Positions 37,256 to 52,729 of a DNA stretch of 64,000 bases are shown piece after piece (within the stretch, counting starts at the first letter, position 1; each line of letters starts with the position of its first letter). The notes beneath the pieces are model-generated. The model saw only the letters and a list, made by a program, of their open reading frames with translations, did not search any database and had not been told where the DNA came from. Source of the stretch: an uncultured Muribaculaceae bacterium (GTDB lineage Bacteria; Bacillota_I; Bacilli_A; RF39; UBA660); the NCBI GenBank assembly GCA_964396655.1, contig CAYNFP010000001.1, positions 70,773-134,772 on the forward strand, given 5' to 3'. The position numbers and the translations under genes are program-made.

Positions 37256-39484
37256 ATGATAAAATTAAAAAATGTTTCTAAGTTTTACTATAGCAAAGGA
37301 GTTGTTGCTTCAGGTTTCTCTAAAATCAATTTAGAACTTGATTTAGGAGAATTTGTTGTAATAACAGGAGAAAGTGGAAGTGGAAAATCCACTCTTTTAA
37401 ATGTAATTTCCGGACTAGATTCTTATGAAGAAGGAGAAATGTACATTAATGGAGAAGAGACAAGCCATTATACAGAGAAGGATTTTGAAATATATAGACG
37501 AAAATATATAGGGAATATTTTTCAAAACTTTAATTTAGTTAACAGTTATACTGTGTATCAAAATATTGAATTAGTATTATTAATTAACGGATATAAAAAA
37601 GCTGAAGTTAAAAGCAAAATACTTGATATTATTAAAAAAGTGGAACTTACTAGATATAAAAACACAAAAGTTTCAAAGCTTTCTGGTGGACAAAAACAAA
37701 GAGTTGCGATAGCAAGAGCGCTCGCTAAAGATACTCCTATAATTGTTGCGGATGAACCAACAGGAAATCTTGATAGTAGAAGTGCAGAATCAGTTATGAA
37801 AATATTAAGTGAGATATCTAAAGATAAATTAGTGGTAGTTGTAACTCATAATTATGAACAAGTTGAAGAATATGCAACCAGAAAAATAAAAATGCATGAC
37901 GGAAAAGTTTTAGAAGATAAAATTTTAAAAAAATACAAAGAAATAAAGAAAGTTAAAGAATCAAATTTTAAAGATATAACATTTTTTAATAAAATAAGGT
38001 TAGGACTTAGAAATACATTTAATGTCGTTCCTAAATTCTTATTACTATTAGTTGTATATTTATTTGTAACTTTAGCTGTGGTTGCTGAATATTCAACTAT
38101 AAAAAAGCAAGAATATGAAACTAGTAAAATGGGATATAATTCTTATTTTACTGATATTTCTGATAGAAGAATAGTTATAAATAAACCAGATAAGACAGTT
38201 TTTACAGATGAAGAATATTCAAAAATAGAAAAATTAGATAACATTGATAGAATTGTTAAAGATGATTTAATGCTTGATAGTAGTGTTTCGCTTAATTCAG
38301 ATTATTTTTACTTTTATGGATATGCTAAGTCTTTAGATTTATTAAAAGGCAATGTGGATGAAGGAAGAATGTCCGAAAATGATTATGAAATAGTTATAGA
38401 AGTAACAAAAAATAATTATTATTTTAATGGAGATATAGAAGGGGTTTTAAATACAGAATATTCTCTTCAAAATAATGCTACATATTCTGAAATATTAGAA
38501 AATAAAATTAAAATAGTTGGTATCATTTATACCACAAGTGATAATCTTATTTATGATAATCCTAACTTTTATTTTAGTAATAAAGCAATGGATGAAATAA
38601 GAAGAAGCAATAATGAAAATTATAGTACTACAACATCTGTAATAAATGATGTAATGTTTACTTCCTATGATTACTCTAATATGTATAAATTATCTCCAAG
38701 CACTAAAGTACCTAAGGGATTTATAGTAATTAGTTCAGATATGGATTATAATTGTAAAAAATATAAATGTAAGAATTCAATTATGAATATTAAAGTTAAA
38801 AACATTTATTTTACAGAAGAACTAAACTTTAAAGTTTATAATACTTACACTAAAAAAACATTTAAAAAATATACAGGATACTCTAATTATGATATGAATA
38901 ATGGACAATATTATATTAATTCTGAAGATTATTATAATATTTATAATAAGGGTTCTTATCAAAGTAGTATATTTGTAGAAGATGTTAAAAAAGTTGATGA
39001 AACAATTAAATCTTTAAAAGATATGGGATATAAAACTTTATATGTAAAAGACGCAATTGTTAATCCTTATGGAGATGCATCTAAGTTCTCAACGTTATTT
39101 TTAACAATATTTATGGGTGCTGTTACTATTGGTTTATTCTTTATAGCGTACTTTATTATTAAAATAATTTTAAAATCAAGAAATATTTATTTTTCAACAA
39201 TAAGAATACTTGGAGCAAGTAAAAAGACTGCTAATAGTTTACTTAATATAGAATTGTTTACTGTATTTAATTTAGCGTTTATTACTATTATTTCATTTAT
39301 AGTATTAGTTTATAATAAGATAATAAATATAACTTATATAGAGGATTTAATAAAATATTTAGAGCTTAAAGATTATATTGTTCTTTATGCAATATTATTT
39401 GTTATATCATTCTTAATTACCAAAAGATATGCTAAAAAATTATTTGCATCTTCTGCGATGAACACATATAGAGAAGAGGTGTAA
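37256..39484 (+). CDS. ABC transporter, fused ATP-binding domain plus MacB/FtsX-like permease
   Basis: Walker A GESGSGKST, signature LSGGQKQR, Walker B IIVADEP. TM1 then a ~330-aa extracytoplasmic domain and three C-terminal TM helices. Confidence 0.85.
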   Translation: MIKLKNVSKFYYSKGVVASGFSKINLELDLGEFVVITGESGSGKSTLLNVISGLDSYEEGEMYINGEETSHYTEKDFEIYRRKYIGNIFQNFNLVNSYTVYQNIELVLLINGYKKAEVKSKILDIIKKVELTRYKNTKVSKLSGGQKQRVAIARALAKDTPIIVADEPTGNLDSRSAESVMKILSEISKDKLVVVVTHNYEQVEEYATRKIKMHDGKVLEDKILKKYKEIKKVKESNFKDITFFNKIRLGLRNTFNVVPKFLLLLVVYLFVTLAVVAEYSTIKKQEYETSKMGYNSYFTDISDRRIVINKPDKTVFTDEEYSKIEKLDNIDRIVKDDLMLDSSVSLNSDYFYFYGYAKSLDLLKGNVDEGRMSENDYEIVIEVTKNNYYFNGDIEGVLNTEYSLQNNATYSEILENKIKIVGIIYTTSDNLIYDNPNFYFSNKAMDEIRRSNNENYSTTTSVINDVMFTSYDYSNMYKLSPSTKVPKGFIVISSDMDYNCKKYKCKNSIMNIKVKNIYFTEELNFKVYNTYTKKTFKKYTGYSNYDMNNGQYYINSEDYYNIYNKGSYQSSIFVEDVKKVDETIKSLKDMGYKTLYVKDAIVNPYGDASKFSTLFLTIFMGAVTIGLFFIAYFIIKIILKSRNIYFSTIRILGASKKTANSLLNIELFTVFNLAFITIISFIVLVYNKIINITYIEDLIKYLELKDYIVLYAILFVISFLITKRYAKKLFASSAMNTYREEV

Positions 39485-39487
39485 ACC

Positions 39488-41941
39488 ATGATTATATTAG
39501 AAAATATTAATAAATATTTTAATAAACATAAGAAAAACCAGATTCATGTTATAAATAATACAAATCTTAAATTAGGTGATACTGGTTTGGTAGCATTACT
39601 TGGACCTTCTGGTAGTGGTAAAACCACCCTTTTAAATGTAATTGGTGGATTAGATAAAGTTGGTAAAGGTAAAATATATGTAAATAATCAAAGAATTACT
39701 AAAAAAACATCATCTAAAATAGATGATATTAGAAATTTAAATATGGGGTATATATTTCAAGATTATCATTTACTTGATAATATGAGCGTTTATGATAATG
39801 TAGCTTTAGTATTAAAAATGACTAATATCAAAAATAAAGATGAAATCAAAAAAAGAGTTGATTATGTACTAGAACGTGTAGGAATGTATAGATATAGAAA
39901 CAGAATGGCAGGTATGCTTTCTGGAGGAGAACGTCAAAGAGTTGGTATAGCAAGAGCTATAGTAAAAAATCCTTCTATAATAATCGCGGATGAACCAACA
40001 GGAAATCTTGATAGTAAAAACACTCTTGAAATAATGAATATAATTAAGTCTATATCTAATGATAAACTTGTTATTTTAGTAACTCATGAAAAAGACTTGG
40101 CTTACTTTTATGCCTCAAGAATTATTAATCTTAAAGATGGCGTAATTGTAAGTGATGAAGAAAATGATAGTGAAGGTGAATTAGATTATAGAATTGATAA
40201 TAAAATATATTTAAAAGATATTAAAAAACATACAGAGTTAAAAAAAGATAATATAGCTATAAATATATATAACGAAACTAAAGATAATGTGTCACTAGAT
40301 ATTGTTATAAAAAATGGAAATATATATTTAAAGACAGGAAATAAAGAAAAACTTGAGTTGGTTGATGAATCATCAAATATTGAATTTATCGATGATCATT
40401 ATAGAAAAATAAATAAAAGTGAATATGAGGATTATAATTTTGATTTTGATAAGATAATTAACAAAAATATAAAACAAAAATATACATCTATATATAATCC
40501 AATAACACTATTAATAAATGGATTTAAAAAAGTAATTAATTATCCATTCTTAAAAAAGATGTTATTATTAGGATTTTTAGTATCTGGAGCATTTATTTTA
40601 TATTCTATTAGTAACATATATGGAATATTAGATATTCAAGATGAAAAATTCGTAACTCAAAATAAAAATTATTTAAATTTAATATTAAATAAAATCAATG
40701 TTAATGATTATTTAAGTTATGAAAAGACAGAAAATGTTAATTATATTATTCCAGGAGATTCTTCAATTACTTTTAATATTAAGTATGAAGATTATTATCA
40801 GACAAGTAAAATAACAGATTCTATGACAGGTTCTTTAGCTAGTTTATCAATGATAACTAAAAAGAATTTAATATATGGAAGAATGCCTGAAAATGATTAT
40901 GAAATAGTTGTAGATAAAATGACTATTGAAAAATTATATGGAAATTATTTGGCTCAGCAAGCAGGATTAGTAAAAATAAAAGATATTCTTAATAGAAAAA
41001 TTTCTATTCAAAATATGGATGATTTTACTATAGTTGGAATATCTGACTTAAAAAGTCCAAGTATATATACTAATGAATCAGTTTTTATAAATATTTTATC
41101 TAATGGTGCTCAGTCTAATGTTGTTTATAGATATGAAGAAAAAATATCAATAGATGATGGTGGATATGGAAGTGAAGAAAAAGTAATTGATTATAATTTA
41201 TATAAAGATGAATTAAAATTAGTTAAAGGAAGATATCCTACAAATGATTATGAAGTATTAATAAATGAATCAAATAGTTATACTTATAAAATTGGCAAAT
41301 ATTTAGATATGAAGGTTAATGATAAAAAGTTAAAAGTTGTTGGATATTACCACGATAAACAAAACAGAACTCTATATTTAACAAACTTGAATACAGTAAA
41401 ATATGATTTAATAACTGATAGTGCTAATATTTCTCTATACTCAAAAGATAAAGCATCTTCCATAGATTATTTTAGAAGTCTTGGTGTTAATATAGAAGAT
41501 TCTTATGCTAAATCAAAAGAAAAATATATTAACAGTATAAAAGATTCAATAGTAATAACTTTAGTAATTGCAGGTGTAATATTATTAATTTCTCTTGTAG
41601 AGATATTCTTAATGGTTAGATCATCATTCTTATCAAGAGTAAAAGAAATTGGTATATTAAGAGCTATAGGACTTAAGAAAAAAGATATTTATAAAATGTT
41701 TTTAGGAGAAGTAATAGCTATAACTACTTTAGCAAGTGTACCTGGATACTTATTAATGATATATATATTAAATACATTAGTAACTTTACCCTTAATGAAA
41801 GATCAGTTCACATTAAATAGTAATGTACTTATAATAAGCATAATATTAATTTACTTATTTAATATATTGGTTGGATTACTTCCAGTATTTAATACTCTTA
41901 AGAAAACACCAGCCGCAATATTAAGCAGAACTGATATATAA
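39488..41941 (+). CDS. ABC transporter, fused ATP-binding domain plus MacB/FtsX-like permease (tandem paralog)
   Basis: GPSGSGKTT, LSGGERQR, IIIADEP. Same architecture as the upstream gene. 4-nt intergenic gap. Confidence 0.85.
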   Translation: MIILENINKYFNKHKKNQIHVINNTNLKLGDTGLVALLGPSGSGKTTLLNVIGGLDKVGKGKIYVNNQRITKKTSSKIDDIRNLNMGYIFQDYHLLDNMSVYDNVALVLKMTNIKNKDEIKKRVDYVLERVGMYRYRNRMAGMLSGGERQRVGIARAIVKNPSIIIADEPTGNLDSKNTLEIMNIIKSISNDKLVILVTHEKDLAYFYASRIINLKDGVIVSDEENDSEGELDYRIDNKIYLKDIKKHTELKKDNIAINIYNETKDNVSLDIVIKNGNIYLKTGNKEKLELVDESSNIEFIDDHYRKINKSEYEDYNFDFDKIINKNIKQKYTSIYNPITLLINGFKKVINYPFLKKMLLLGFLVSGAFILYSISNIYGILDIQDEKFVTQNKNYLNLILNKINVNDYLSYEKTENVNYIIPGDSSITFNIKYEDYYQTSKITDSMTGSLASLSMITKKNLIYGRMPENDYEIVVDKMTIEKLYGNYLAQQAGLVKIKDILNRKISIQNMDDFTIVGISDLKSPSIYTNESVFINILSNGAQSNVVYRYEEKISIDDGGYGSEEKVIDYNLYKDELKLVKGRYPTNDYEVLINESNSYTYKIGKYLDMKVNDKKLKVVGYYHDKQNRTLYLTNLNTVKYDLITDSANISLYSKDKASSIDYFRSLGVNIEDSYAKSKEKYINSIKDSIVITLVIAGVILLISLVEIFLMVRSSFLSRVKEIGILRAIGLKKKDIYKMFLGEVIAITTLASVPGYLLMIYILNTLVTLPLMKDQFTLNSNVLIISIILIYLFNILVGLLPVFNTLKKTPAAILSRTDI

Positions 41942-42138: not shown

Positions 42139-42681
42139 ATGTTATATTCTTATAAAGAGGCAGTAAAAAAATTGGGTTCAAAATATAAATTAAAGAAAGC
42201 ATTAAAAACAATAGCAATTTTTAAAATAGAGAAGGGACTATATAGTAATAAAAAAAATGTCAATCAATTTGAAATCATTAATAAAAAATTTCCTAATGCA
42301 ATTTTTACTTTAAATAGCGCATTTTTTTATTATGATTTAACCGATGTAATACCAGAAAAAACTTATCTTGCTATTAAAAGAGATTCTACAAAAATTAATA
42401 GCAAAAATATAATTCAAGTAAAAGTTATTGATTCATTATTTGATGTTGGAAAAAGCAACTTAACAATTGGTAATACTACCATTAAAATATATGATAAAGA
42501 AAGAATGTTAATTGAATTAATAAGAAATAGAAATTCTTTTGGTTTTGATTATTATAAAGAAATAATAAATAATTATAGGGAAATAAAGAATGAACTGGAT
42601 GTTTCTAAAATCTCTAATTATTTAAGTAAATTTCAAAATGAAGAACATTTGTATAACGTTATCATGAAAGAGATATATTGA
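42139..42681 (+). CDS. AbiEi-like antitoxin / transcriptional regulator (type IV TA, abortive infection)
   Basis: 180 aa with an N-terminal AbiEi-like region (KIEKGLYS). Overlaps the downstream nucleotidyltransferase by 4 bp. Confidence 0.55.
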   Translation: MLYSYKEAVKKLGSKYKLKKALKTIAIFKIEKGLYSNKKNVNQFEIINKKFPNAIFTLNSAFFYYDLTDVIPEKTYLAIKRDSTKINSKNIIQVKVIDSLFDVGKSNLTIGNTTIKIYDKERMLIELIRNRNSFGFDYYKEIINNYREIKNELDVSKISNYLSKFQNEEHLYNVIMKEIY

Positions 42682-43508
42682 TGAATATAAGTGAAACTCT
42701 TAATTTATATAAAGAAAAGGGATATAACGGGGATACTGCTATCTATAAAATGTGCCAAGATATAGTTTTGTCAAGAATTGCTTCTTCTTCGTTTAAAAAT
42801 AACGTAACTATAAAAGGCGGCATAGTTATGATGGAATTATCAAAAGACAATAGACGAGCTACAGTAGATATTGATGTTGATTTTATTAAATATTCTTTAG
42901 AAGATAAACTCATAGAAAAATTTATAGGTAAACTTTCAACTAATGAGTTAGTATTTAAAATAAGTGCACCAATAAAAAAGTTGCATCACCAAGATTATGA
43001 TGGCAAAAGAGTCTACATAGAAATAACTGATAAATATCAAAATAGCATTTCTACGAAAATCGATATAGGAGTACATAAAAATTTTGATATCAAACAAGAT
43101 GAATTATGCTTTGATTTAAATCTATTAAATGAAGGTATATCATTACTTGTAAACTCAAAGGAACAAATTTTTGTAGAAAAATTAAAATCTTTATTAAAAT
43201 TTGGAATTACTTCTACAAGATATAAGGATATTTTTGATTTGTATTTTTTAATTAATAAGAAAAATTTTGACAAAAATAGATGTTTATTATATATTGAGAA
43301 ATTAATATTAATGGATAATAAGTTAAATGAAAAAACTGTTTTCGAAGTTAATTCTTCAGTTAGTAGTATTTTACAAAATAAAGTATTTAAATCAAAACTA
43401 AGAAACTCAAAACATAACTGGTTAAATGTATCAATTGATGATGCAGTTGCTTCAATTCTAAAATATATAGAGTCACTTGAATTGGTTGGTGTAAAAAACG
43501 GAGTATAA
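42678..43508 (+). CDS. AbiEii/AbiGii-family nucleotidyltransferase toxin (DUF1814)
   Basis: IKGGIVMMELSKDNRRATVDIDVDF matches the GG...R.T.DID nucleotidyltransferase motif of the AbiEii family. Confidence 0.65.
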   Translation: MMNISETLNLYKEKGYNGDTAIYKMCQDIVLSRIASSSFKNNVTIKGGIVMMELSKDNRRATVDIDVDFIKYSLEDKLIEKFIGKLSTNELVFKISAPIKKLHHQDYDGKRVYIEITDKYQNSISTKIDIGVHKNFDIKQDELCFDLNLLNEGISLLVNSKEQIFVEKLKSLLKFGITSTRYKDIFDLYFLINKKNFDKNRCLLYIEKLILMDNKLNEKTVFEVNSSVSSILQNKVFKSKLRNSKHNWLNVSIDDAVASILKYIESLELVGVKNGV

Positions 43509-43945: not shown

Positions 43946-46282
43946 ATGAATACTTTTAAAAAGAAAAAAATTACAAGCAATGAAATTGAATTACTAGATA
44001 TGTATTTTAGGGCTGCTAATTATTTAGCTGCTGGACAATTATATTTACTTGATAATCCCTTGCTTAAAAAGAAGCTAACAATTAAAGATTTGAAATCAAA
44101 GGTTGTGGGACACTGGGGAACTGTTCCTGGACAAAATTTTATATATACACATTTGAATAGAATTGTAAAAAATTATGATTTAAATATTTTATATGTTTCA
44201 GGACCAGGACATGGTGGGAATGGAATGGTTGCTAATGATTATTTGGATGGAAGTTATACTGAAATATATCCAAAAATAACTGAAGATGAAGCTGGAATGA
44301 AAAAGTTATTTAAACAATTTAGTTTTCCAGGAGGAATTTCTAGTCATGTTGCACCAGAAACACCAGGTTCTATAAATGAAGGAGGAGAACTTGGTTATTC
44401 TCTTGCTCATTCTTTTGGAGCAGTATTAGATAATCCTGATTTGATTATTGCTTGTGTTGTAGGTGATGGAGAAGCAGAGACTGGTCCACTTGCAACATCA
44501 TGGAATGGAAATAAATTTTTAAATCCTAAAACTGATGGAGTAGTTGTTCCAATTCTTCATTTAAATGGCTATAAAATAGCAAATCCAACAGTTATGGGAA
44601 GAATGTCTGATCAAGATTTAAAATCATTTTTTAAGGGTTTAAAATATGAACCAATTTTTGTAGAAGGCACCGATAGAAAATCTATGCATAAAAAAATGGC
44701 TAATGCTATGGATGAAGTTATTAAAAAAATAAATGTTATTAAAACTAAAGGTGAAGTTGAATATTGGCCAATGATAATATTAAGAAGTCCTAAAGGATGG
44801 ACAGGGCCAAAAGAATATGATGGAAAACCAATGGAAAATAGCTTTAGAGCACACCAAGTTCCGATTCCTGTAAGTGAAGATAATGTTACATTAATAGAAA
44901 AATGGTTAAAAAGTTATCATCCAGAAGAATTATTTGATAATAATGGTTCTTTAATTAAAGAAATAAAAGAAATTTTACCAAAAGGAAATAAAAGAATTGG
45001 AATGAATCCTCATTCTAATGGTGGCAATTTATTAAAAGAAATAATTACTCCTGATATCAATAAATATGAATTTAAAATTGAAAAAAGAGGAATGCAGTAT
45101 ACAAGTGATATGTATAATTTAGGCTTTTATATTAAAGACTTAATTTCTTTAAATGAATCAAATAAAAATTATATGATTTTTGGACCTGATGAAGCTTTAT
45201 CAAATAAATTAAATCAAGTATTTGAAGTTACTAAAAGAAAATGGAATATGAATACTTTTGCTAATGATGAATATATGTCAACAAAGGGAAGAATTGTTGA
45301 TAGTATGCTCTCTGAACATTTATGTGAAGGAATGTTAGAAGGATATTTATTAACTGGAAGACATGGGTTCTTTCATAGTTATGAAGCATTTATTAGAATA
45401 GTGGATTCAATGACTTCTCAACATGCAAAATGGTTAAAAGTTACTAAAGAACTTCCTTGGAGGAAACCAATTTCTTCACTCAATTATATATTAACTTCTC
45501 ATGTTTGGCAGCAAGATCATAATGGTTTTACTCATCAAGATCCAGGATTTTTAAATCATATATTAACCAAAAAAGCTGATACTGTAAGAATGTATTTACC
45601 ATTTGATACAAATACATTAATATCATCATTTGATCATATTGTAAAAACGAAAAATTATATAAATGTAATAGTAGCTTCTAAACATGAAAGACCACAATGG
45701 TTATCAATGAAAGAAGCTATTGAACATTGCACAAAGGGTATTGATATATTGTCTTGGGCAAGTAATGATAAAGGGAAACCAGATATAATACTTGCTTGTG
45801 CTGGAGATACTCCAACTCTTGAAGTATTAGCGGCAACAACAATTCTTAGAAAAAATCTACCTAATTTAAAAATTAGAGTTATAAATGTAGTTGACTTGTT
45901 TAAATTAGAGTCAAGTAAAGATCATCCTCATGGATTAACAGAAACAGAATATAACAAATTATTTCCAAGTGATGTGCCTGTAATATTTAATTTTCATGGA
46001 TATCCAAGTTTAATACATCAACTTACTTACAAAAGAGATAATCATGATAATATTCATGTAAAAGGTTATAATGAAGAAGGTACAATAACAACACCTTTTG
46101 ATATGAGAGTACAAAATAAAATCGATAGATTTAATGTTGTTATTTCTGCTTTAAAATATGTAGAAATAGAAGACAAAGATAAATTAATCGAATGGTGTAA
46201 AGATAAGTTAAATGAACATCAACTTTACACTAGAGAGTATGGTTCTGATATTCCAGAAGTAGTTAATTGGAAATGGGAATAA
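43946..46282 (+). CDS. xfp: phosphoketolase (xylulose-5-P / fructose-6-P)
   Basis: 778 aa. GHWGT, SGPGHGG and EGGELGY motifs of the XFP family. Confidence 0.9.
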   Translation: MNTFKKKKITSNEIELLDMYFRAANYLAAGQLYLLDNPLLKKKLTIKDLKSKVVGHWGTVPGQNFIYTHLNRIVKNYDLNILYVSGPGHGGNGMVANDYLDGSYTEIYPKITEDEAGMKKLFKQFSFPGGISSHVAPETPGSINEGGELGYSLAHSFGAVLDNPDLIIACVVGDGEAETGPLATSWNGNKFLNPKTDGVVVPILHLNGYKIANPTVMGRMSDQDLKSFFKGLKYEPIFVEGTDRKSMHKKMANAMDEVIKKINVIKTKGEVEYWPMIILRSPKGWTGPKEYDGKPMENSFRAHQVPIPVSEDNVTLIEKWLKSYHPEELFDNNGSLIKEIKEILPKGNKRIGMNPHSNGGNLLKEIITPDINKYEFKIEKRGMQYTSDMYNLGFYIKDLISLNESNKNYMIFGPDEALSNKLNQVFEVTKRKWNMNTFANDEYMSTKGRIVDSMLSEHLCEGMLEGYLLTGRHGFFHSYEAFIRIVDSMTSQHAKWLKVTKELPWRKPISSLNYILTSHVWQQDHNGFTHQDPGFLNHILTKKADTVRMYLPFDTNTLISSFDHIVKTKNYINVIVASKHERPQWLSMKEAIEHCTKGIDILSWASNDKGKPDIILACAGDTPTLEVLAATTILRKNLPNLKIRVINVVDLFKLESSKDHPHGLTETEYNKLFPSDVPVIFNFHGYPSLIHQLTYKRDNHDNIHVKGYNEEGTITTPFDMRVQNKIDRFNVVISALKYVEIEDKDKLIEWCKDKLNEHQLYTREYGSDIPEVVNWKWE

Positions 46283-46375
46283 AGATTGTTTTTACAATCT
46301 TTTTTTGACAATAAATAAACAAAGTGTAATAATAGTATTAAAGAGAGAAATATTATAATTTAAGGAGTTAATATT

Positions 46376-46639
46376 ATGAATAAAGAAGTTTTTGAAGCAA
46401 ATATGGAAAGTGAAAGTGGCTACAGATATACTTCTGGTACATGTACATATGATGAACTAAACCCAAGAGACACTGGAGTTAAAGTTATTATTTCTTCTCG
46501 AAAATATCAACAGCCATTAAGACCAAAAGACCAAGCAGAACTGAAACCTGAAGTTGCTGAAGAAATCTCAAAACCAATTGATAATTCTAGAGAATTAAAA
46601 AGGACTAGAAGTTTCAGATTTTTTAAAAAAGGCAAATAA
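46376..46639 (+). CDS. small paralog family protein P1 (unknown function)
   Basis: N-terminus MNKEVFEANMESE, related to the M[DN]xE[IV]xxAN[RH]EN motif of the five downstream genes. Preceded by an AAGGAG RBS. Confidence 0.5.
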   Translation: MNKEVFEANMESESGYRYTSGTCTYDELNPRDTGVKVIISSRKYQQPLRPKDQAELKPEVAEEISKPIDNSRELKRTRSFRFFKKGK

Positions 46640-46686
46640 AAAATATTTATTAAAAAACTTAAAGGGGGCCTTAAGGAGGAATTATT

Positions 46687-46950
46687 ATGGATTTAGCAAT
46701 AGCAAGAGCAAATCATGAAGGTTTAACTGGAAGAGAAAATTGGCGTGGCTTTGATGTTCCGGACTTACCAACAGAAGCGAATGAAACACATTCCGGATGC
46801 TTTGGAGCAGCTTCAAATGAGCCTGAGGTTTATAGTGGTTGTTTTGGAGGACAAACTGAACAAGGATCAAAAGGATTCACACTTCAATTACTACCATCAT
46901 ATTCAAAAACTTTATTAAGAAATTTAGAGGAAGGCGGAAAATTAAGGTAA
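46687..46950 (+). CDS. small paralog family protein P2
   Basis: N-terminus MDLAIARANHEG. Two SGCFG repeats. GGAGG RBS. Confidence 0.5.
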   Translation: MDLAIARANHEGLTGRENWRGFDVPDLPTEANETHSGCFGAASNEPEVYSGCFGGQTEQGSKGFTLQLLPSYSKTLLRNLEEGGKLR

Positions 46951-46954
46951 TATT

Positions 46955-47314
46955 ATGGATGAAGAAATAGCAAAAGCAAATCGTGAAAATAGTAGAATAA
47001 GTTATTTGCCAACCACACCGCCGCCACGCAACTTGCACGGTATTAAAGTGGTACATCTTGATCCAAGTCTTTATAGTACATTAGAAAGAAATATGGGATT
47101 GCCAGGGGAATTGAAATCAAGCCCACTTAATGTTAGAAGTGAAAATGATAGAATACAATATATAAATTCACATATATCGGCAAGTAAATCACAAGGACTT
47201 GAAGCAGTGTCTGCTCCTGAAACTTTTTATCGTAAACTAGAAACTCTTATGTTTCCAGAAGATGGTGAAGAAATTTTTGCACCATCTGGCAATTCCAGAA
47301 AATTAGAAAGATAA
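46955..47314 (+). CDS. small paralog family protein P3
   Basis: N-terminus MDEEIAKANRENSR. C-terminus ...FAPSGNSRKLER. Confidence 0.55.
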   Translation: MDEEIAKANRENSRISYLPTTPPPRNLHGIKVVHLDPSLYSTLERNMGLPGELKSSPLNVRSENDRIQYINSHISASKSQGLEAVSAPETFYRKLETLMFPEDGEEIFAPSGNSRKLER

Positions 47315-47373
47315 GAATATTATTTTGGGTATTTAAATTGACAATAGAAAAGAAATAAAATTAAGGAGAAGAT

Positions 47374-47688
47374 ATGAATAGAGAAGTATATGATGCAAAT
47401 CGTGAAAATGGTAGACTTAGATTTGGCTTTAGTACAAGAGATAGCGGACTAATAATACCACTTGATCCAGAACTACAAGAAGAAATACGAACAAGTCGTA
47501 AAAAAGATGGAGTAGTATTTCCCCCTATTGGTTTCGGACTTGCTAGAAGAATGATTCACCACACTCCAGAAGAATTTGAAAAGGTAGAAAAAACTATTAT
47601 GAGTGGTTTAGCAAGTGGTGCTGTTTTAGGAATTGAAGAAAAAATTTCTGCACCATCTGGCAATTCCAGAAAATTAGAAAGGAAATAA
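47374..47688 (+). CDS. small paralog family protein P4
   Basis: N-terminus MNREVYDANRENGR. C-terminus ...SAPSGNSRKLERK. A 32-nt 3'-end block is identical to P3. Confidence 0.55.
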   Translation: MNREVYDANRENGRLRFGFSTRDSGLIIPLDPELQEEIRTSRKKDGVVFPPIGFGLARRMIHHTPEEFEKVEKTIMSGLASGAVLGIEEKISAPSGNSRKLERK

Positions 47689-47691
47689 AAT

Positions 47692-47949
47692 ATGGACTAT
47701 ACAATATCACAAGCAAATAGAGAAAATAATAAATCGTTTTTTTCTTATGAGCCGGTTCCAATCCCACCGCGAAACAAATATGGCTGGGGGTCGGGATTTT
47801 TTGATCCTACTCCAATGCCAAAAGAAGAAGAGCAAAGTCATTTGAAAGTTGTTGAGGGTGCTGAAGAACTTCATGCATTACTCGATGATTCATTTTTTAA
47901 TCCCACATTTAACTTAACTTTAAGCAAATGTAAAAAAGGCGGTGTTTAA
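47692..47949 (+). CDS. small paralog family protein P5
   Basis: N-terminus MDYTISQANRENNK. Shares a PxPPRN motif with P3. Confidence 0.5.
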   Translation: MDYTISQANRENNKSFFSYEPVPIPPRNKYGWGSGFFDPTPMPKEEEQSHLKVVEGAEELHALLDDSFFNPTFNLTLSKCKKGGV

Positions 47950-47951
47950 AT

Positions 47952-48230
47952 ATGGCTTTTAAAGCTTTTGAAAATTCACTTTCAAAAACCATTTGGCAAA
48001 CTTATAATCATAATGAGCCTGATGAATTTGGTCATCTCCCTGGGGTTCACTATTATCCTCGTAGTAATTCTCATCCATTTGTTTCGTTTGATAGAAATCC
48101 CGAAAACTATATTACAATTTCACATATCCCAAATATGCCAAGTATTGTTAATCACCCTTTATATAAAAAGGCATTATTGATGCCAGAAAAAGATGAAGAA
48201 GCATTATGCAGAAAAAGAAAATTATATTAA
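47952..48230 (+). CDS. small protein P6 (last gene of the small-gene array; family membership weak)
   Basis: N-terminus MAFKAFENS. Translationally coupled (2-nt gap) to P5. Confidence 0.4.
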   Translation: MAFKAFENSLSKTIWQTYNHNEPDEFGHLPGVHYYPRSNSHPFVSFDRNPENYITISHIPNMPSIVNHPLYKKALLMPEKDEEALCRKRKLY

Positions 48231-48291
48231 AATATAGAAAAAATGGAAATATAGTATCATCAATTGTTTTGAAGTTACAAAAAACATTATT

Positions 48292-48320
48292 ATTGACAAT
48301 TTAAGTGAAAGTTGTATAAT
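48292..48320 (+). promoter_or_regulatory. sigmaA-like promoter for the aspS leader
   Basis: TTGACA at 48292-48297, a 17-nt spacer, then TATAAT at 48315-48320. Confidence 0.55.
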
Positions 48321-48329
48321 TTATTTATA

Positions 48330-48470
48330 AATTGTTTCTTTGGAGTGACACAAAGATTTAAAAGACAATAGTTAGTCAGCTTTAATGATATTAAAGAGCA
48401 TAGAAATCTATGAAGTAAGGTGGTACCGCGGTAATTCGTCCTTATAAATTATAGATTTTTTTATTTTATA
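48330..48470 (+). ncRNA. T-box riboswitch leader, Asp-specific (GAC specifier)
   Basis: Conserved T-box sequence AAGTAAGGTGGTACCGCGG at 48413-48431. Specifier-loop-like GGAGTGACACAAAG with GAC. Terminator-like AAATCTAT...ATAGATTTTTTT. Directly upstream of aspS. Confidence 0.7.
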
Positions 48471-48482
48471 GGAGGGAAAAAA

Positions 48483-50225
48483 ATGAAAGAAAATAAATTT
48501 AGAAATTCTTTTTGTGGTACGGTCACAAAAGAGAAAGTAGGGCAAACCGTTAGATTATCTGGTTGGGTTGATTCAATTAGAAATTTAGGAAAATTATTAT
48601 TTATAGTATTAAGAGATGAAACTGGTACTATACAATTAATTACTGAAGATATTGAAAAATATTTAAATATTACTAGGGAATCAGTTATTAAATGTGAAGG
48701 TGTAGTAAGAGAAAGAACTAAAGAAATGATAAATCCTAATATGAAAACTGGTGAAGTTGAAGTATTAGTAAATTCTATTGAAATTTTAAGCGTATGTAAT
48801 AGTGTTTTACCATTTGAAATAAAGAATTCTCAAAGTGCTAATGAAGATACAAGATTAAAATATAGATTCTTAGATTTAAGAAATCCAATTGTTCATGATA
48901 ATATTTTATTTAGAACAGAGGTTATTGCATTTATAAGAGAAACAATGAAGGGGATGAATTTTACTGAAGTGCAAACCCCAATAATAACAGCATCTTCTCC
49001 GGAAGGAGCAAGAGACTTTATTGTTCCATCTAGAAAAAATAAAGGTAAATTTTATGCTTTACCTCAAGCACCTCAAATATTTAAACAATTATTAATGGTA
49101 AGTGGATTTAATAAATATTTTCAGATAGCGCCTTGCTTTAGAGATGAAGATCCTAGAAGTGATAGATTATATGGAGAGTTTTATCAATTGGACTTTGAAA
49201 TGTCTTTTGCAGAGCAAGAAGATGTATTTGAAGTAGGAGAAAAAGTATTTTATGATGTATTTACTAAATTTAGTAATAAGTATGTAACTCCTCGTCCATT
49301 TATAAGAATACCATTTAATGAAGCAATGCTAAAATATGGTAGTGATAAACCAGATTTAAGAAATCCTTTAATTATAACAGATTTAACAGATGTATTTAAA
49401 AATACTACTTTTGAACCTTTTAAAAATAATAAAATAAGAGGTATATTTGTAGATAATATTGAGAAGTCAAATTCTTGGTTTAATGAAATAGAAGAATATG
49501 CTAAAAGTATGGGTATGAAAGGTATATCAATACTTAGAGTTCAAGAAGATTTAACTTTTAAGGGTGGCCTTTCTAAATACTTAAGTGAAGAAGAAAATAA
49601 TGAATTAAAAAAATTATTTAATGTAAAAGTTAACGGTGCTTTATTTATAATAGCTGATAAAGAAAAAGCTAATAAATATGCTGGATTTATTAGAACTAAA
49701 CTTGGAGAATCTTTAGAATTATTAGATAAAACCAGATATGAATTTTGTATAATAAATGATTTCCCAATGTATGAATATAATGAAGAAACTGAATCTTATG
49801 ATTTTACTCACAATCCATTTACAATGCCACAAGGAGGAATGGATAGTTTACTTCATAAAGAAACCGGTGAAATATTAGCCTATCAATATGACTTTGTATG
49901 TAATGGTATAGAACTTGCAAGTGGCGGAGTAAGAAACTATAGTGTAGAAATACTTAAAAAAGCTTTTGAACTTGCAGGTTATGGAGAAGAAGAGGTCAAA
50001 AGAAGATTCACATCTTTATATAATGCATTTCAGTATGGAGCACCTCCACATGCAGGCATGGCTCCCGGAATAGATAGAATATTAATGTTGCTAAAAGACG
50101 AAGAAAATATTAGGGAAATGGTAGCATTCCCAATGAGCTCTAATGGATTAGACTTACTCATGGGAGCGCCTTCTGAAGTTAGCGAAAAACAACTTAGAGA
50201 AGCTCACATTAAAGTAAGAGATTAA
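48483..50225 (+). CDS. aspS: aspartate--tRNA ligase
   Basis: 580 aa. Class II motifs (FYALPQAPQ..., GGVRNY, GMAPGIDR) and an N-terminal OB anticodon-binding domain. Confidence 0.95.
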   Translation: MKENKFRNSFCGTVTKEKVGQTVRLSGWVDSIRNLGKLLFIVLRDETGTIQLITEDIEKYLNITRESVIKCEGVVRERTKEMINPNMKTGEVEVLVNSIEILSVCNSVLPFEIKNSQSANEDTRLKYRFLDLRNPIVHDNILFRTEVIAFIRETMKGMNFTEVQTPIITASSPEGARDFIVPSRKNKGKFYALPQAPQIFKQLLMVSGFNKYFQIAPCFRDEDPRSDRLYGEFYQLDFEMSFAEQEDVFEVGEKVFYDVFTKFSNKYVTPRPFIRIPFNEAMLKYGSDKPDLRNPLIITDLTDVFKNTTFEPFKNNKIRGIFVDNIEKSNSWFNEIEEYAKSMGMKGISILRVQEDLTFKGGLSKYLSEEENNELKKLFNVKVNGALFIIADKEKANKYAGFIRTKLGESLELLDKTRYEFCIINDFPMYEYNEETESYDFTHNPFTMPQGGMDSLLHKETGEILAYQYDFVCNGIELASGGVRNYSVEILKKAFELAGYGEEEVKRRFTSLYNAFQYGAPPHAGMAPGIDRILMLLKDEENIREMVAFPMSSNGLDLLMGAPSEVSEKQLREAHIKVRD

Positions 50226-50322: not shown

Positions 50323-51609
50323 ATGATAGATATAAATTTGATAAGAGAAAATAAAGAATTAGTAAAAGAAAATATTAAAAAGAAATTTCAGGATCATAAA
50401 TTATCCTTAGTAGATGAAATATATGATTTAGATATTAACTTTAGAAAGATTAAAACTGAAGCTGATAACACAAGAAGTGAAAAGAATCGTCTTAGTGATT
50501 CTATTGGTTCTTTAATGAGAGAAGGTAAAAAAGAAGAAGCAGAAAGTATTAAAACTAAAGTTTCTGAAATGAATAATAAAATATCTTCTTTAGAACTTGA
50601 AGAAGATGAACTAAGTAAAAAGATTAAAAAACTTATGTATCAGATACCAAATATAATAGATAAAAGTGTTCCGATTGGTAAAAATGATAGTGAGAATGTA
50701 GAAATCGAAAAATTTGGAGAACAAACTAAATATGATTTTGAAATACCATATCATACAGATATTTTAGAAAAATTAAATGGAATAGATTTGGATTCTGCAA
50801 GAAGAGTTTCTGGGAATGGATTTTATTATTTAACTGGGGATATTGCTAGACTTCATTCAGCAATACTTACTTATGCTAGAGATTTTATGATAGACAAAGG
50901 ATTCACTTATGTTATACCACCATTTATGATTCATGGAGAAGTAGTAGAAGATGTTATGAGTTTTGAAGAAATGGATAATATGATGTATAAAATAGAGGGT
51001 GAAGATTTATATCTGATTGGAACTAGTGAACATTCAATGATTGGTAGATATAAAGATACAATTCTTAATGAAAAAGAATTACCTTTAACTCTTACAAGCT
51101 ACAGTCCGTGTTTTAGAAAAGAAAAAGGAGCTCATGGTATAGAAGAAAGAGGAATATATAGAATTCATCAATTTGAAAAACAAGAAATGGTAGTTATATG
51201 TAAACCCGAAGAATCTATGAAATATTTTAATGATATGTGGAAATATACTGTAGAACTATTCAGAAGTTTAGATATTCCTGTTAGAACAATAGAGTGCTGT
51301 AGTGGTGATTTAGCGGATTTAAAAGTTAAATCATATGATGTAGAAGCTTGGTCTCCTCGTCAAAATAAATACTTTGAAGTTGGAAGTTGTTCTAATTTAG
51401 GAGATGCTCAATCAAGAAGACTTGGTATAAGAGTTATAGGAGATAATATTAAATATTATCCACATACTTTAAATAATACTGTAGTTGCACCACCTCGTAT
51501 GTTAATAGCATTCTTAGAAAATAATTTAAATGAGGACGGAAGTATAAATATCCCAGAATCTTTACAAAAATATATGGGAAATAAAAAGATTATAGGAGGA
51601 TTAAAATGA
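50323..51609 (+). CDS. serS: serine--tRNA ligase
   Basis: 428 aa. N-terminal coiled-coil arm and a class II core (TSEHSM..., FRKE, GSCSN). Confidence 0.95.
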   Translation: MIDINLIRENKELVKENIKKKFQDHKLSLVDEIYDLDINFRKIKTEADNTRSEKNRLSDSIGSLMREGKKEEAESIKTKVSEMNNKISSLELEEDELSKKIKKLMYQIPNIIDKSVPIGKNDSENVEIEKFGEQTKYDFEIPYHTDILEKLNGIDLDSARRVSGNGFYYLTGDIARLHSAILTYARDFMIDKGFTYVIPPFMIHGEVVEDVMSFEEMDNMMYKIEGEDLYLIGTSEHSMIGRYKDTILNEKELPLTLTSYSPCFRKEKGAHGIEERGIYRIHQFEKQEMVVICKPEESMKYFNDMWKYTVELFRSLDIPVRTIECCSGDLADLKVKSYDVEAWSPRQNKYFEVGSCSNLGDAQSRRLGIRVIGDNIKYYPHTLNNTVVAPPRMLIAFLENNLNEDGSINIPESLQKYMGNKKIIGGLK

Positions 51610-51836
51610 GTTCAAATGCTCCAGAAGGAAAACAAAAAAGATACGATTTATTTAAAAGAATAAAAGCTTCTTTAGCAGTTAAAGAAGCTGAAAAAATAGC
51701 CATTGAAATGTATAATTTAGGAGTACAATATGCAAATGATGGTACCACATGGCCAGAAATAGAAGCTTTAGGTTATGATAACGAACCCGAATTTGTAAGG
51801 GGTTATAATGAAACACTTGAAAAATCAGGAGAGTAG
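51606..51836 (+). CDS. small hypothetical protein
   Basis: 76 aa. 4-bp overlap (ATGA) with the serS stop. Confidence 0.35.
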   Translation: MSSNAPEGKQKRYDLFKRIKASLAVKEAEKIAIEMYNLGVQYANDGTTWPEIEALGYDNEPEFVRGYNETLEKSGE

Positions 51837-51901
51837 ATAAATACTCTTTTTTCTTTTGATATAAAAAAAAATATTAATCATATAATTTTTTAGGTGATTC
51901 T

Positions 51902-52729
51902 ATGAAAAAAATATTTCAATATATTGGTATATTATGTTTAACTGGATTTAGTTTTTATTATGCCAATAAAGTAGCAAAATTATTGAATGGCGAAGATACA
52001 GTTATGAAGAATATAAATGAATATGCACAAAAGTATGACACAAAATGTATTGAAGGTTATATTACTGATGAAGGTGTTGTTTTGGGAATAAGCGGACTTA
52101 TTGTAGATACTGAATCCAGTTATTCACAGATGAAAGGTATTGGTTTTGATACATCTTTAATTGATTATAAAGAAAATCCATGTGTTGTAAGTAAAACAAA
52201 TAATAAAGATAATTATATAATAAGGGGTAATGATTCAAAGAAATCAGTAAGTTTAATAATAAATATTACTAATGGAAAGAATTTAAAGAAAATAGTTGAA
52301 GTCACAAAAACTAAAAATGTTAATATTAGTTTTATGATAAATAATACTTTTTTAGAAAACAATAAAACATATATTTCTGAGTTAATAAATAGTAATTATG
52401 ATTTTTTATATAAAGGAGAATCTGAAGAAGAATTTAAACTATTTTTAAAAAATATAAAATCTATTAAAAAAGATATTGAAACATTTTGTATATATCAAAA
52501 CAGTGAAGATACATTAAATTACTGTTATAAAAATGATATTAACACAATAAAAGTAAGTAAAATATATTCTTCAAATTATTTATCAAATATTAAAACAGGT
52601 TTAAATAAAGGTGATTTTATAATAATGGATGAAAGTTCTGTTTTATCAACAGAAGTGGGAGTTATTATTAATTATATAAGATCAAGAGGATTAAAAGTTG
52701 TAACTATTACTAAACATTTATCTAATTAA
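51902..52729 (+). CDS. membrane-anchored protein, divergent polysaccharide-deacetylase/PdaB-like (sporulation-associated?)
   Basis: N-terminal TM. The central region loosely parallels the PdaB-family layout. Catalytic residues not confirmed. Confidence 0.3.
   Translation: MKKIFQYIGILCLTGFSFYYANKVAKLLNGEDTVMKNINEYAQKYDTKCIEGYITDEGVVLGISGLIVDTESSYSQMKGIGFDTSLIDYKENPCVVSKTNNKDNYIIRGNDSKKSVSLIINITNGKNLKKIVEVTKTKNVNISFMINNTFLENNKTYISELINSNYDFLYKGESEEEFKLFLKNIKSIKKDIETFCIYQNSEDTLNYCYKNDINTIKVSKIYSSNYLSNIKTGLNKGDFIIMDESSVLSTEVGVIINYIRSRGLKVVTITKHLSN

What the first reader, a model, noticed from the sequence alone, without database searches (positions are those of the whole stretch)
46340..48240. 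Tandem array of six small paralogous genes with a shared N-terminal motif and recombining 3' ends
Six consecutive + strand ORFs of 85-119 aa sit directly downstream of phosphoketolase, tightly packed or translationally coupled (gaps of 2-60 nt).
- Five share an N-terminal signature M[DN]xE[IV]xxAN[RH]EN. P3 and P4 both carry the codon string GCAAATCGTGAAAAT.
- C-termini are related (..RNLEEGGKLR, ..APSGNSRKLER, ..APSGNSRKLERK). P3 and P4 end in an identical 32-nt block, GCACCATCTGGCAATTCCAGAAAATTAGAAAG, at 47279-47310 and 47650-47681. This indicates recent gene conversion or duplication.
- Other internal motifs recur across paralogs: PxPPRN in P3 and P5, SGCFG twice in P2.
- The proteins are hydrophilic, Pro/Gly/Arg/Asn-rich, and have no signal peptide or TM segment. 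The array has higher GC than its surroundings.
- I recognise no described family. Candidate roles, all untested: spore or stress-associated small proteins; precursor/leader-bearing peptides with conserved termini and variable cores; or a diversifying paralog set.
Basis: seen in the sequence. Interest (0 to 1): 0.72.

Follow-up and report, generated by a model that had tools for sequence, protein, structure and literature searches.

The report
Orphan tandem array of small proteins
Six small genes in a row in an uncultured, very AT-rich gut bacterium encode related, probably floppy proteins that share a 12-residue start and a basic tail, match nothing known, and differ in number (six versus two) from the closest relative found, so they look real but their function is unknown.

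Summary
Six + strand ORFs (87, 87, 119, 104, 85, 92 aa) fill 46376-48230 between phosphoketolase and aspS. They have their own promoter, ribosome-binding sites and a clear coding signature.

- **Paralogy:** five ORFs share M[DN]xx[IV]xxANxE[NGS]. P1, P3, P4 and P5 are significant paralogs, P2 is marginal, and P6 is linked only by weak motifs.
- **32-nt block:** the P3/P4 block is exact. It shares rare codons (P about 1e-3 for independent codon choice), so it reflects gene conversion or partial duplication.
- **Database searches:** Pfam, NCBIfam, PHROGs, PADLOC, PDB sequences and an exhaustive HMMER scan of 1.84 billion representatives found nothing except the genes themselves.
- **Structure:** AlphaFold gives no fold (pLDDT 54).
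- **Sister species:** at 91% AspRS identity, the same terminator and promoter are followed by only two family genes. The N-terminal motif is kept there, with a third Arg codon.
- **More distant relative:** at 86% AspRS identity the syntenic site upstream of aspS lacks the array.

Best reading: a clade-restricted, fast-turnover orphan operon of small modular proteins. A docking or targeting role for the N-terminal helix is inference only. Spore-protein and peptide-precursor readings find no support. The family is new, but interest is modest.

The parts
46281..46302 (+). Terminator-like hairpin of the phosphoketolase gene: a 9-bp stem followed by a U run that overlaps the -35 hexamer of the array promoter.
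   Evidence: Folding gives -7.9 kcal/mol, z -3.3 against shuffles. The sequence is identical in the sister-species locus L149.
46305..46333 (+). Promoter of the array: TTGACA, 17 nt, TG-extended AATAAT.
   Evidence: 11 of 12 consensus matches. The -35, the spacer end and the extended -10 are conserved in L149, where synonymous sites of the adjacent xfp tail are saturated (dS about 1.3).
46376..46639 (+). P1, 87 aa. Starts MNKEVFEANMES; basic tail ..NSRELKRTRSFRFFKKGK.
   Evidence: ORF with AAGGAG ribosome-binding site. Paralogous to P3 and P4, z 4.7 and 4.0. Codon log-likelihood is far better in frame 0 than in the other two frames.
46687..46950 (+). P2, 87 aa. Starts MDLAIARANHEG; contains SGCFG twice; ends ..RNLEEGGKLR. 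Its last codons form the Shine-Dalgarno of P3.
   Evidence: Only marginal pairwise similarity (z 2.7 to P3). It still scores 43.6 bits against the family profile that includes it.
46955..47314 (+). P3, 119 aa. It looks like a fusion of two units.
   Evidence: RENSRISYLPTT (46982-47017) is repeated as SENDRIQYINSH (47138-47173), 19 of the first 24 nt identical by my count from the printed sequences. The C-terminal half aligns with protein B of L149, z 6.6.
47374..47688 (+). P4, 104 aa. Starts MNREVYDANRENGR; ends ..APSGNSRKLERK. Its last codons (GAAAGGAAA) form the Shine-Dalgarno of P5.
   Evidence: Paralogous to P3, z 9.7.
47692..47949 (+). P5, 85 aa. Starts MDYTISQANRENNK; contains IPPRN. The motif Arg is encoded by AGA, not CGT.
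   Evidence: Paralogous to P3, z 9.6.
47952..48230 (+). P6, 92 aa. Last cistron of the operon. It lacks the N-terminal motif and is only weakly related to the others.
   Evidence: Not significant in pairwise tests. No PDB or Pfam match. The coding signature is present.
47279..47310 (+). Copy 1 of the 32-nt identical tract (3' end of P3, encoding APSGNSRKLE).
   Evidence: Exact match. Shared rare codons, P about 1e-3.
47650..47681 (+). Copy 2 of the 32-nt identical tract (3' end of P4).
   Evidence: Logan k=31 assemblies break exactly at this repeat.
46976..46990 (+). The ANREN codon string GCAAATCGTGAAAAT in P3; an identical copy in P4 lies at 47395-47409.

Best explanation
**Shown or strongly supported.** This is a genuine six-cistron operon, very probably translated. 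It has its own promoter and sits between the phosphoketolase gene and the T-box-controlled aspS. It encodes a clade-restricted orphan family of small (85-119 aa), hydrophilic proteins rich in Pro, Arg, Gly, Ser and Glu, with no confidently predicted fold.

**Common plan of the proteins.**
- A 12-residue N-terminal helix, M[DN]xx[IV]xxANxE[NGS].
- A loose PR[ND]..G-hydrophobic..DP block.
- A variable middle.
- An acidic patch followed by a basic tail (..EEIxAPSGNSRKLER). The last codons of that tail double as the ribosome-binding site of the next cistron.

**How the array changes.** It changes by tandem duplication, unit fusion (P3 is two units), gene conversion (the 32-nt P3/P4 tract) and loss. 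There are six genes here and two in the closest relative found.

**Inferred function.** The proteins act through their short conserved termini rather than through a fold. The N-terminal helix would be a shared recognition or docking peptide that brings interchangeable, fast-evolving bodies to one common partner, such as an export, assembly or degradation machine or a binding target. This is a set-of-variants logic typical of niche-adaptation or conflict loci.

**My probabilities.**
- Real, translated genes: about 0.85.
- No membership in any described family: about 0.9.
- The docking-peptide mechanism: about 0.3.

The overall confidence of 0.5 is for the composite statement.
For: **Coding.**
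- Six contiguous ORFs lie on the strand used by nearly all neighbouring ORFs, in a 24.9% GC genome.
- GC1 > GC2 >> GC3 (0.47/0.41/0.17).
- Codon log-likelihood in frame 0 is -3.7 to -4.0, against -4.4 to -5.2 in the other frames.
- There is an AAGGAG-type ribosome-binding site or a 2-4 nt coupling gap before each start.

**Own transcription unit.**
- xfp terminator hairpin.
- Promoter with 11 of 12 consensus matches, conserved in L149.
- aspS has its own 12-of-12 promoter and a T-box leader.

**Family.**
- Pairwise z-scores reach 9.7.
- The motif is unique to these ORFs within the window.

**Orphan status.**
- No hit in Pfam, NCBIfam, PHROGs or PADLOC.
- No hit among PDB sequences.
- Only the genes themselves were found among 5.8 billion clusters and among 1.84 billion representatives by exhaustive HMMER.
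- tblastn against phages and plasmids gave nothing credible.
- A DNA pattern scan of metagenome contigs gave 62 single hits, about the number I had estimated by hand for chance matches. None had a ribosome-binding site or an array.

**Protein-level selection on the N-terminal motif.**
- It is kept in L149 protein A (MNEDVHRANREGG) while the rest of that protein is unrecognisable.
- The motif Arg uses CGT in P3 and P4, AGA in P5 and CGA in A.

**Turnover.**
- L149 (AspRS 91% identical) has the same flanks but only two family ORFs.
- L150 (86%) has neither xfp nor the array upstream of aspS.

**Gene conversion.**

**No fold.** AlphaFold pLDDT is 54.5 and 54.0, pTM 0.17 and 0.18. Only the N-terminal helix approaches confidence, at about 70.
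Against: - There is no expression or proteomic evidence.
- Only two species carry the family, and one of them is known from a single 4-kb contig. Selection therefore cannot be measured properly.
- Another small gene in these genomes also diverges very fast: the orf76 orthologue is 44% identical over its alignable part. The hypervariability of the array is therefore not by itself a sign of diversifying selection.
- Low pLDDT from alignments of only 5-7 sequences does not prove disorder.
- No partner protein, secretion system or target has been identified; the docking idea rests on architecture alone.
- Part of the C-terminal conservation can be explained at RNA level, because it overlaps a Shine-Dalgarno.
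- P6, and to a lesser degree P2, are weak members.
Confidence: 0.5

Rival explanations
1. The ORFs are evolutionary froth. A recently duplicated, transcribed stretch keeps its ORFs open by chance or under very weak selection, and the proteins have no selected function. The conserved junctions then reflect duplication history, gene conversion and the needs of translation initiation and coupling.
For: - No homologue anywhere except a sister species.
- No predicted fold.
- Copy number is six versus two, and the array is absent in the next relative.
- The array interior has no detectable DNA similarity between species.
- The C-terminal KLER/KLR codons coincide with Shine-Dalgarno sequences.
Against: - In a 25% GC genome, six open frames of 85-119 codons with 94% coding density are very unlikely without selection.
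- Amino-acid composition encoded by GC-rich codons (Pro, Arg, Gly) is maintained at codon positions 1 and 2, while position 3 has nearly equilibrated to the genome. That argues for long residence under constraint.
- The N-terminal motif is retained across species with three different Arg codons.
- The promoter is conserved against a saturated neutral background.
Confidence: 0.2
2. The array is a component of a conflict system, such as an immunity-like, decoy or anti-phage/anti-defence set. It would sit in a variable island upstream of aspS, with the variable bodies tracking variable targets.
For: - An AbiEi-like/AbiEii pair lies just upstream of xfp.
- In L150 the region upstream of aspS carries ToxN, an M23 peptidase and unknown ORFs, so this neighbourhood is variable and rich in defence genes.
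- Rapid turnover and copy-number change.
Against: - No PADLOC or PHROGs hit.
- A housekeeping gene (xfp) with its own terminator separates the array from AbiE.
- No toxin or enzymatic partner lies in the operon.
- The proteins show no recognisable fold.
Confidence: 0.12
3. The proteins are protective or stress-related hydrophilic proteins, hydrophilin/LEA-like or spore-associated, acting in bulk as disordered shields or DNA/ribosome binders through their basic tails.
For: - Hydrophilic: GRAVY -0.62 to -1.15. Gly is 7.0%. Enriched in Pro, Arg, Ser and Glu and depleted in Ile, Val and Tyr.
- Basic C-terminal tails.
- Low AlphaFold confidence.
Against: - No match to any SASP, LEA or spore family.
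- Only P1 reaches the hydrophilin hydropathy criterion.
- Bulk protectants are usually conserved in composition and repeats across wide taxa, not confined to two species.
- No sporulation genes were seen among the neighbouring proteins scanned.
Confidence: 0.1
4. The proteins are ribosomally synthesised peptide or bacteriocin precursors. The conserved N-terminus would be a leader recognised by a modifying enzyme or an export protease, and the variable remainder would be the core.
For: - Conserved N-terminal 12 residues with a variable remainder.
- Multiple tandem copies.
- Two SGCFG motifs in P2.
- Two ABC/FtsX-type transporters lie 4.4-9 kb upstream.
Against: - No modifying enzyme in or beside the operon. 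The only radical SAM gene is about 7.4 kb away, among translation-related genes, and the sister-species contig L149, which ends about 1.5 kb past aspS, shows no such gene.
- The ABC proteins lack a C39 peptidase domain.
- No conserved Gly-Gly or other cleavage site follows the motif.
- The C-terminus is conserved as well.
- 85-119 aa is long for a precursor, and four of the six proteins have at most one Cys.
Confidence: 0.05

Closest known systems
Internal proteins (IPI/IPII/IPIII and the hyperplastic IP loci) of T4-like phages, which carry an N-terminal capsid-targeting sequence. This is from my own knowledge and was not tested as homology.
   Same: - Tandem, hypervariable small genes.
- Products share only a roughly 10-residue N-terminal peptide that delivers otherwise unrelated bodies to one machine.
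- Copy number and content differ between close relatives.
   Different: - There is no phage context here; the flanks are xfp and aspS.
- No PHROGs hit.
- No prohead-protease cleavage motif.
- The C-terminus is conserved too.
- No sequence similarity.
Polymorphic toxin/immunity cassette arrays (Zhang et al. 2012, PMC3482391).
   Same: - Tandem arrays that vary between strains.
- Short conserved segments at module borders support recombination or gene conversion.
- Rapid turnover between close strains.
   Different: - No toxin, immunity or trafficking domain detected.
- No large parent gene.
- The proteins are small, hydrophilic and without a predicted fold.
Hydrophilins/LEA-like and small acid-soluble proteins.
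   Same: - Small, hydrophilic, Gly-containing proteins.
- Likely disordered.
- Often present as several paralogs.
   Different: - No family match.
- The hydropathy criterion is met by P1 only.
- The family is restricted to two species.
Short targeting peptides of compartment cargo: bacterial microcompartment encapsulation peptides and encapsulin cargo-loading peptides. This is from my own knowledge.
   Same: A short terminal amphipathic helix or tail is shared by otherwise unrelated proteins. Here the helix is predicted at residues 3-12, with hydrophobic moment 0.2-0.6.
   Different: - No shell or encapsulin gene among the 40 window proteins scanned.
- The 'cargo' here are small foldless proteins, not enzymes.
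- The motif sequence is unrelated.

Membership tests
Small acid-soluble spore proteins or other spore-protein families | Match to the SASP or spore-protein profile HMMs (Pfam/NCBIfam). | tested here: not met
   None of the six proteins hit any such family at E up to 10.
Small acid-soluble spore proteins or other spore-protein families | The host is a spore former, with core sporulation genes present. | not testable with these tools
   Only 64 kb of the genome is available. No sporulation-specific family appears among the 40 neighbouring proteins scanned. The nearest relatives found by AspRS are uncultured gut 'Bacilli bacterium' MAGs.
RiPP precursor peptides | A modifying enzyme (or RRE-containing protein) encoded in the same cluster. 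| tested here: not met
   The operon contains only the six ORFs. Its flanks are xfp and aspS. The nearest radical SAM gene is about 7.4 kb away, among translation-related genes.
RiPP precursor peptides | Conserved leader with a hypervariable C-terminal core. | tested here: not met
   The N-terminal 12 residues are conserved, but so is the extreme C-terminus; the variable part is the middle.
Double-glycine-leader bacteriocins | Leader ending in a conserved Gly-Gly, plus an ABC transporter with a C39 peptidase domain. | tested here: not met
   There is no conserved GG after the motif; the residues there are NS, NG, NN, SE and GL. The nearby ABC proteins have ABC_tran and FtsX domains only.
WXG100 / type VII secretion substrates | WXG100 profile match and a central W-x-G helical hairpin of about 100 aa. 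| tested here: not met
   No Pfam hit. No WxG motif in any of the six sequences. AlphaFold gives no helical hairpin.
Hydrophilins | Gly above 6% and mean hydrophilicity above 1 (GRAVY below -1). The criterion is from my own knowledge (Garay-Arroyo et al. 2000). | tested here: not met
   Gly is 7.0% overall. GRAVY is below -1 only for P1 (-1.15); the others range from -0.62 to -0.78.
Known anti-phage defence proteins | Match to a PADLOC model. | tested here: not met
   No hit at E up to 1.
Phage proteins (for example internal or targeted virion proteins) | PHROG match or phage genomic context. | tested here: not met
   The only PHROG hit has E 0.33 over 12 residues. tblastn against 50,697 phage records gave one hit at E 0.1. 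The neighbouring genes are housekeeping genes.

The most novel reading that the evidence does not exclude
The 12-residue N-terminal helix is a previously unrecognised sorting signal. It would direct a fast-diversifying repertoire of small disordered effector proteins to an unidentified export or assembly machine in uncultured, AT-rich gut Bacilli. That would make the locus an arms-race or host-interaction cassette array of a new type.
Probability: 0.12. Interest if true: 0.7.

Novelty: categorically new. Interest (0 to 1): 0.35.

Why it matters
If the proteins are made, this operon is a clean and compact example of a gene family that is invisible to homology search even between sister species. 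The family profile scores the sister-species member at only about 10 bits. Despite that, the family keeps a 12-residue N-terminal motif, a conserved promoter and an unusual amino-acid composition.

Such loci are a large part of the unannotated 'dark matter' of uncultured gut bacteria. A shared terminal peptide on variable bodies would point to an unknown recognition or sorting process in these organisms.

The practical value today is modest. It consists of a defined motif, a defined operon and a two-species comparison that make the question testable. Orphan small-protein arrays as such are common, and no function is established here.

Tried and rejected
**Family libraries.** Pfam, NCBIfam, PHROGs and PADLOC on all six proteins gave nothing. 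The ANP (E 0.034) and DUF3579 (E 0.23) matches are chance hits to 6- and 33-residue stretches.

**Protein searches.**
- Word-indexed search with P3 and with a six-protein alignment found only the proteins themselves.
- Exhaustive HMMER of a five-paralog profile against 1.84 billion representatives found only the proteins themselves.
- PDB sequence search gave nothing.
- tblastn against phages and plasmids gave nothing credible.

**Synteny in reference genomes.** A genome-contig scan anchored on AspRS returned 80 loci at 68% identity or less. None showed synteny or a family member. The window's own species is not in that collection.

**DNA pattern scans.**
- A degenerate pattern for the N-terminal motif gave 1 viral and 62 metagenome hits. 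All look like chance: no ribosome-binding site, no array, and mostly inside unrelated ORFs or in very short frames.
- The pattern required ANREN, so it would have missed ANREG-type members.

**Strain diversity.** Logan contigs carrying P2, P5 and P6 are 100% identical to the window and give no polymorphism.

**Structure.** AlphaFold of P3 and P4 gave pLDDT of about 54, so fold searches were not run because they would be meaningless.

**An argument I dropped.** I first read the lack of DNA similarity between the two species' arrays as 'faster than neutral', using aspS dS 0.55. I dropped that argument because the xfp tail gives dS of about 1.3 and the orf76 orthologue is only 44% identical over its alignable part. 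Neutral sites are effectively saturated.

**RNA element.** No Rfam match lies inside the array, so I rejected an RNA element as the explanation.

**Literature.** One full-text search for similar arrays found nothing specific.
Full report
**1. What is in the sequence**

Between the phosphoketolase gene (43946-46282) and aspS (48483-50225) lie six + strand ORFs:

| ORF | Coordinates | Length |
|---|---|---|
| P1 | 46376-46639 | 87 aa |
| P2 | 46687-46950 | 87 aa |
| P3 | 46955-47314 | 119 aa |
| P4 | 47374-47688 | 104 aa |
| P5 | 47692-47949 | 85 aa |
| P6 | 47952-48230 | 92 aa |

- The phosphoketolase identification comes from XFP_N/XFP/XFP_C hits on an identical contig.
- The gaps between the ORFs are 47, 4, 59, 3 and 2 nt. 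P1, P2 and P4 have AAGGAG-type ribosome-binding sites. P3, P5 and P6 start 2-4 nt after the previous stop.
- The 32-nt block sits exactly at 47279-47310 and 47650-47681, and the 15-nt ANREN codon string exactly at 46976-46990 and 47395-47409. Both are expected 0 times by chance.
- AN[RHM]E[NGS] occurs in no other six-frame ORF of the window. In the five ORFs it always lies at residues 8-12.

**2. Are they genes?**

The window is 24.9% GC, so long open frames are rare by chance. Evidence for coding comes:

| Measure | Array | 38 long genes of the window |
|---|---|---|
| GC1 | 0.47 | 0.355 |
| GC2 | 0.41 | 0.268 |
| GC3 | 0.17 | 0.122 |

- Codon log-likelihood is much better in the annotated frame (-3.7 to -4.0) than in the two shifted frames (-4.4 to -5.2).
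- The locally raised GC (0.32-0.38) therefore comes from amino-acid composition: Pro 7.3% against 2.6%, Arg 6.8% against 2.9%, Gly, Ser and Glu raised, and Ile, Lys, Tyr, Val and Asp lowered. It is not foreign DNA.
- Third positions have almost reached the genome's AT bias while first and second positions have not. That argues for long residence under selection on composition.

**3. Transcription unit**

- The phosphoketolase stop is followed by a 9-bp hairpin and a U run (46281-46302; -7.9 kcal/mol, z -3.3).
- That hairpin overlaps a promoter, TTGACA-17-(TG)AATAAT, at 46305-46333 (11 of 12 matches).
- No terminator follows P6.
- aspS has its own perfect promoter at 48293-48320 and a short T-box leader (RF00230, 52.9 bits, E 3.8e-10, below the gathering score).

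**4. Family relations**

Smith-Waterman scores against shuffles:

| Pair | z |
|---|---|
| P3-P4 | 9.7 |
| P3-P5 | 9.6 |
| P1-P3 | 4.7 |
| P1-P4 | 4.0 |
| P2-P3 | 2.7 (marginal) |
| P6 to any member | not significant |

The alignments suggest a common plan:
- an N-terminal M[DN]xx[IV]xxANxE[NGS];
- a loose PR[ND]..G..(hydrophobic)..DP block;
- a variable middle;
- then PE.F, an acidic patch and a basic tail (EEIxAPSGNSRKLER in P3 and P4; recognisable variants in P1, P2, P5 and, faintly, P6).

P3 carries an internal repeat: RENSRISYLPTT at 46982-47017 and SENDRIQYINSH at 47138-47173, with 19 of the first 24 nt identical by my count. It therefore looks like two fused units.

**5. The 3' block**

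Figures:

| Region of the P3/P4 alignment | Nucleotide identity |
|---|---|
| Last 17 aligned codons | 90% |
| Middle | 45% |
| First 14 codons | 76% |

- The ten codons of APSGNSRKLE are identical, including GGC (5.9% of Gly codons in this genome) and TCC (2.2% of Ser codons).
- The probability of identical codon choice, given the same peptide, is about 1e-3.
- Logan k=31 assemblies of three metagenomes break exactly at this repeat. That explains why P3 and P4 are absent from that source.
- The codons AAA TTA (GAA) AGG, read as KLER or KLR, end P2, P4 and L149 protein A, and they coincide with the Shine-Dalgarno of the following cistron. The same string, AAAATTAAGG, occurs non-coding upstream of P4. 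Part of the C-terminal conservation may therefore be an RNA-level constraint.

**6. Known families**

- No hit in Pfam, NCBIfam, PHROGs or PADLOC or in PDB sequences.
- The word-indexed search of 5.8 billion clusters found only the six proteins.
- An exhaustive HMMER scan of 1.84 billion representatives with a five-paralog profile found only the five query proteins.
- Phage and plasmid tblastn was empty or gave only a chance hit.
- AlphaFold gave no fold for P3 (pLDDT 54.5, pTM 0.17) or P4 (54.0, 0.18). Only the N-terminal helix, residues 3-12, approaches confidence. With alignments this shallow, that result is compatible with disorder but does not prove it.

**7. Relatives**

- A scan of one genome per species anchored on AspRS gave 68% identity at best, to uncultured gut 'Bacilli bacterium' MAGs and Firmicutes bacterium CAG:321. 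None showed synteny or a family member.
- The large protein collection held closer AspRS sequences at 91%, 87%, 86% and 72% identity.

*The 91% relative (L149, a 4-kb Logan contig)*
- It has the xfp 3' end, the same terminator and promoter, and the same aspS promoter and T-box leader. The flanks are 79.6% and 88.4% identical at DNA level.
- Between the flanks it has only two ORFs:
  - A, 82 aa: MNEDVHRANREGGKDY...TLERKKRNEK.
  - B, 66 aa: related to the C-terminal half of P3 (z 6.6; ESVSASTGFYRRLEKKVF against EAVSAPETFYRKLETLMF).
- The array interiors share no detectable DNA similarity.
- The motif Arg is CGA in A, CGT in P3 and P4, and AGA in P5. The motif is therefore conserved at protein level.
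- The family profile scores A at only about 10 bits. Profile searches therefore cannot see even sister-species members, and 'orphan' here means 'evolving too fast to trace' as much as 'rare'.

*The 86% relative (L150)*
- It has neither xfp nor the array upstream of aspS. It carries ToxN, an M23 peptidase and unknown ORFs instead.

*Caution on rates*
- aspS gives dS 0.55, but the xfp tail gives about 1.3.
- The small neighbour orf76 is only 44% identical to its orthologue over the alignable part.
- Neutral sites are effectively saturated, so the divergence of the array does not by itself show diversifying selection.
- Against that background, the conserved promoter and the conserved N-terminal motif stand out as constrained.

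**8. Interpretation**

*Shown*
- A real-looking, separately promoted six-cistron operon.
- A family of at least seven clearly or marginally related members in two species (P1-P5, A and B), plus P6 by context.
- Evolution by duplication, unit fusion, gene conversion and loss.
- No relation to any described family.

*Inferred*
The proteins work through short terminal motifs on otherwise unconstrained, probably disordered bodies. The reading that best fits a conserved 12-residue N-terminal helix on interchangeable bodies is a shared docking or targeting peptide for one common partner. I put this at about 0.3.

*Rivals*

| Rival | Confidence |
|---|---|
| Weakly selected or non-functional ORFs whose junctions are conserved for translational reasons | 0.2 |
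| A conflict-system component in a variable island (AbiE nearby here, ToxN in L150) | 0.12 |
| Hydrophilin-like or spore-associated protectants | 0.1 |
| RiPP or bacteriocin precursors | 0.05 |

They fail every membership feature that could be tested.

**9. Verdict**

- The family lies outside every known kind I could test, so I rate it as new. Orphan small-gene arrays in uncultured bacteria are common and no function is established, so interest is modest (0.35).
- The most novel reading still open is a new sorting signal on a diversifying effector repertoire. I give it about 0.12.

Noticed in passing
window 48293-48446: A short T-box leader lies upstream of aspS (RF00230, 52.9 bits, E 3.8e-10, well below Rfam's gathering score of 93). 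A perfect TTGACA-16-TATAAT promoter sits at 48293-48320. The promoter and leader lie within a block 88% identical to the sister-species contig L149 (L149 669-2642).
   Followed up: partly
window 42139-43508: An AbiEii toxin gene (PF08843, 42678-43508) is preceded by an overlapping 180-aa ORF (42139-42681, no Pfam hit) in the position of an AbiEi antitoxin. The pair lies immediately upstream of the phosphoketolase gene.
   Followed up: no
L150 6475-9740 (GCA_964477325.1, AspRS 86% identical): In this relative the region upstream of aspS holds ToxN (PF13958), an M23 peptidase and three ORFs of 133-202 aa with no family, instead of xfp and the array. The aspS-upstream neighbourhood is a variable island in this clade.
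   Followed up: partly
window 50323-52729 versus L149 2643-3050: The window has serS (50323-51609) between aspS and the small ORF at 51606-51836, and a 275-aa ORF with no Pfam hit (51902-52729) between that small ORF and the DUF1003 gene. In L149, aspS is followed directly by the 88-aa orthologue of the small ORF (44% identical over 48 residues) and then by DUF1003. Gene order and small-protein sequences change quickly between these two species.
   Followed up: partly
window 47307 and 47652 (ends of Logan contigs L081-L085): Logan assemblies of SRR8925774, SRR8925775 and SRR8925805 are 100% identical to the window and end exactly at the two copies of the 32-nt repeat. The repeat breaks k=31 assemblies and removes P3 and P4 from that source.
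   Followed up: yes
window 37256-41941: Two adjacent large ORFs (742 and 817 aa) each have an N-terminal ABC ATPase domain; the second also has a C-terminal FtsX-like permease domain. Neither has a C39 peptidase domain. Their substrate is unknown.
   Followed up: no
window 46982-47017 and 47138-47173: There is an internal repeat within P3 (RENSRISYLPTT / SENDRIQYINSH; 19 of the first 24 nt identical). It suggests P3 arose by fusion of two family units. L149 protein B resembles the second unit.
   Followed up: partly
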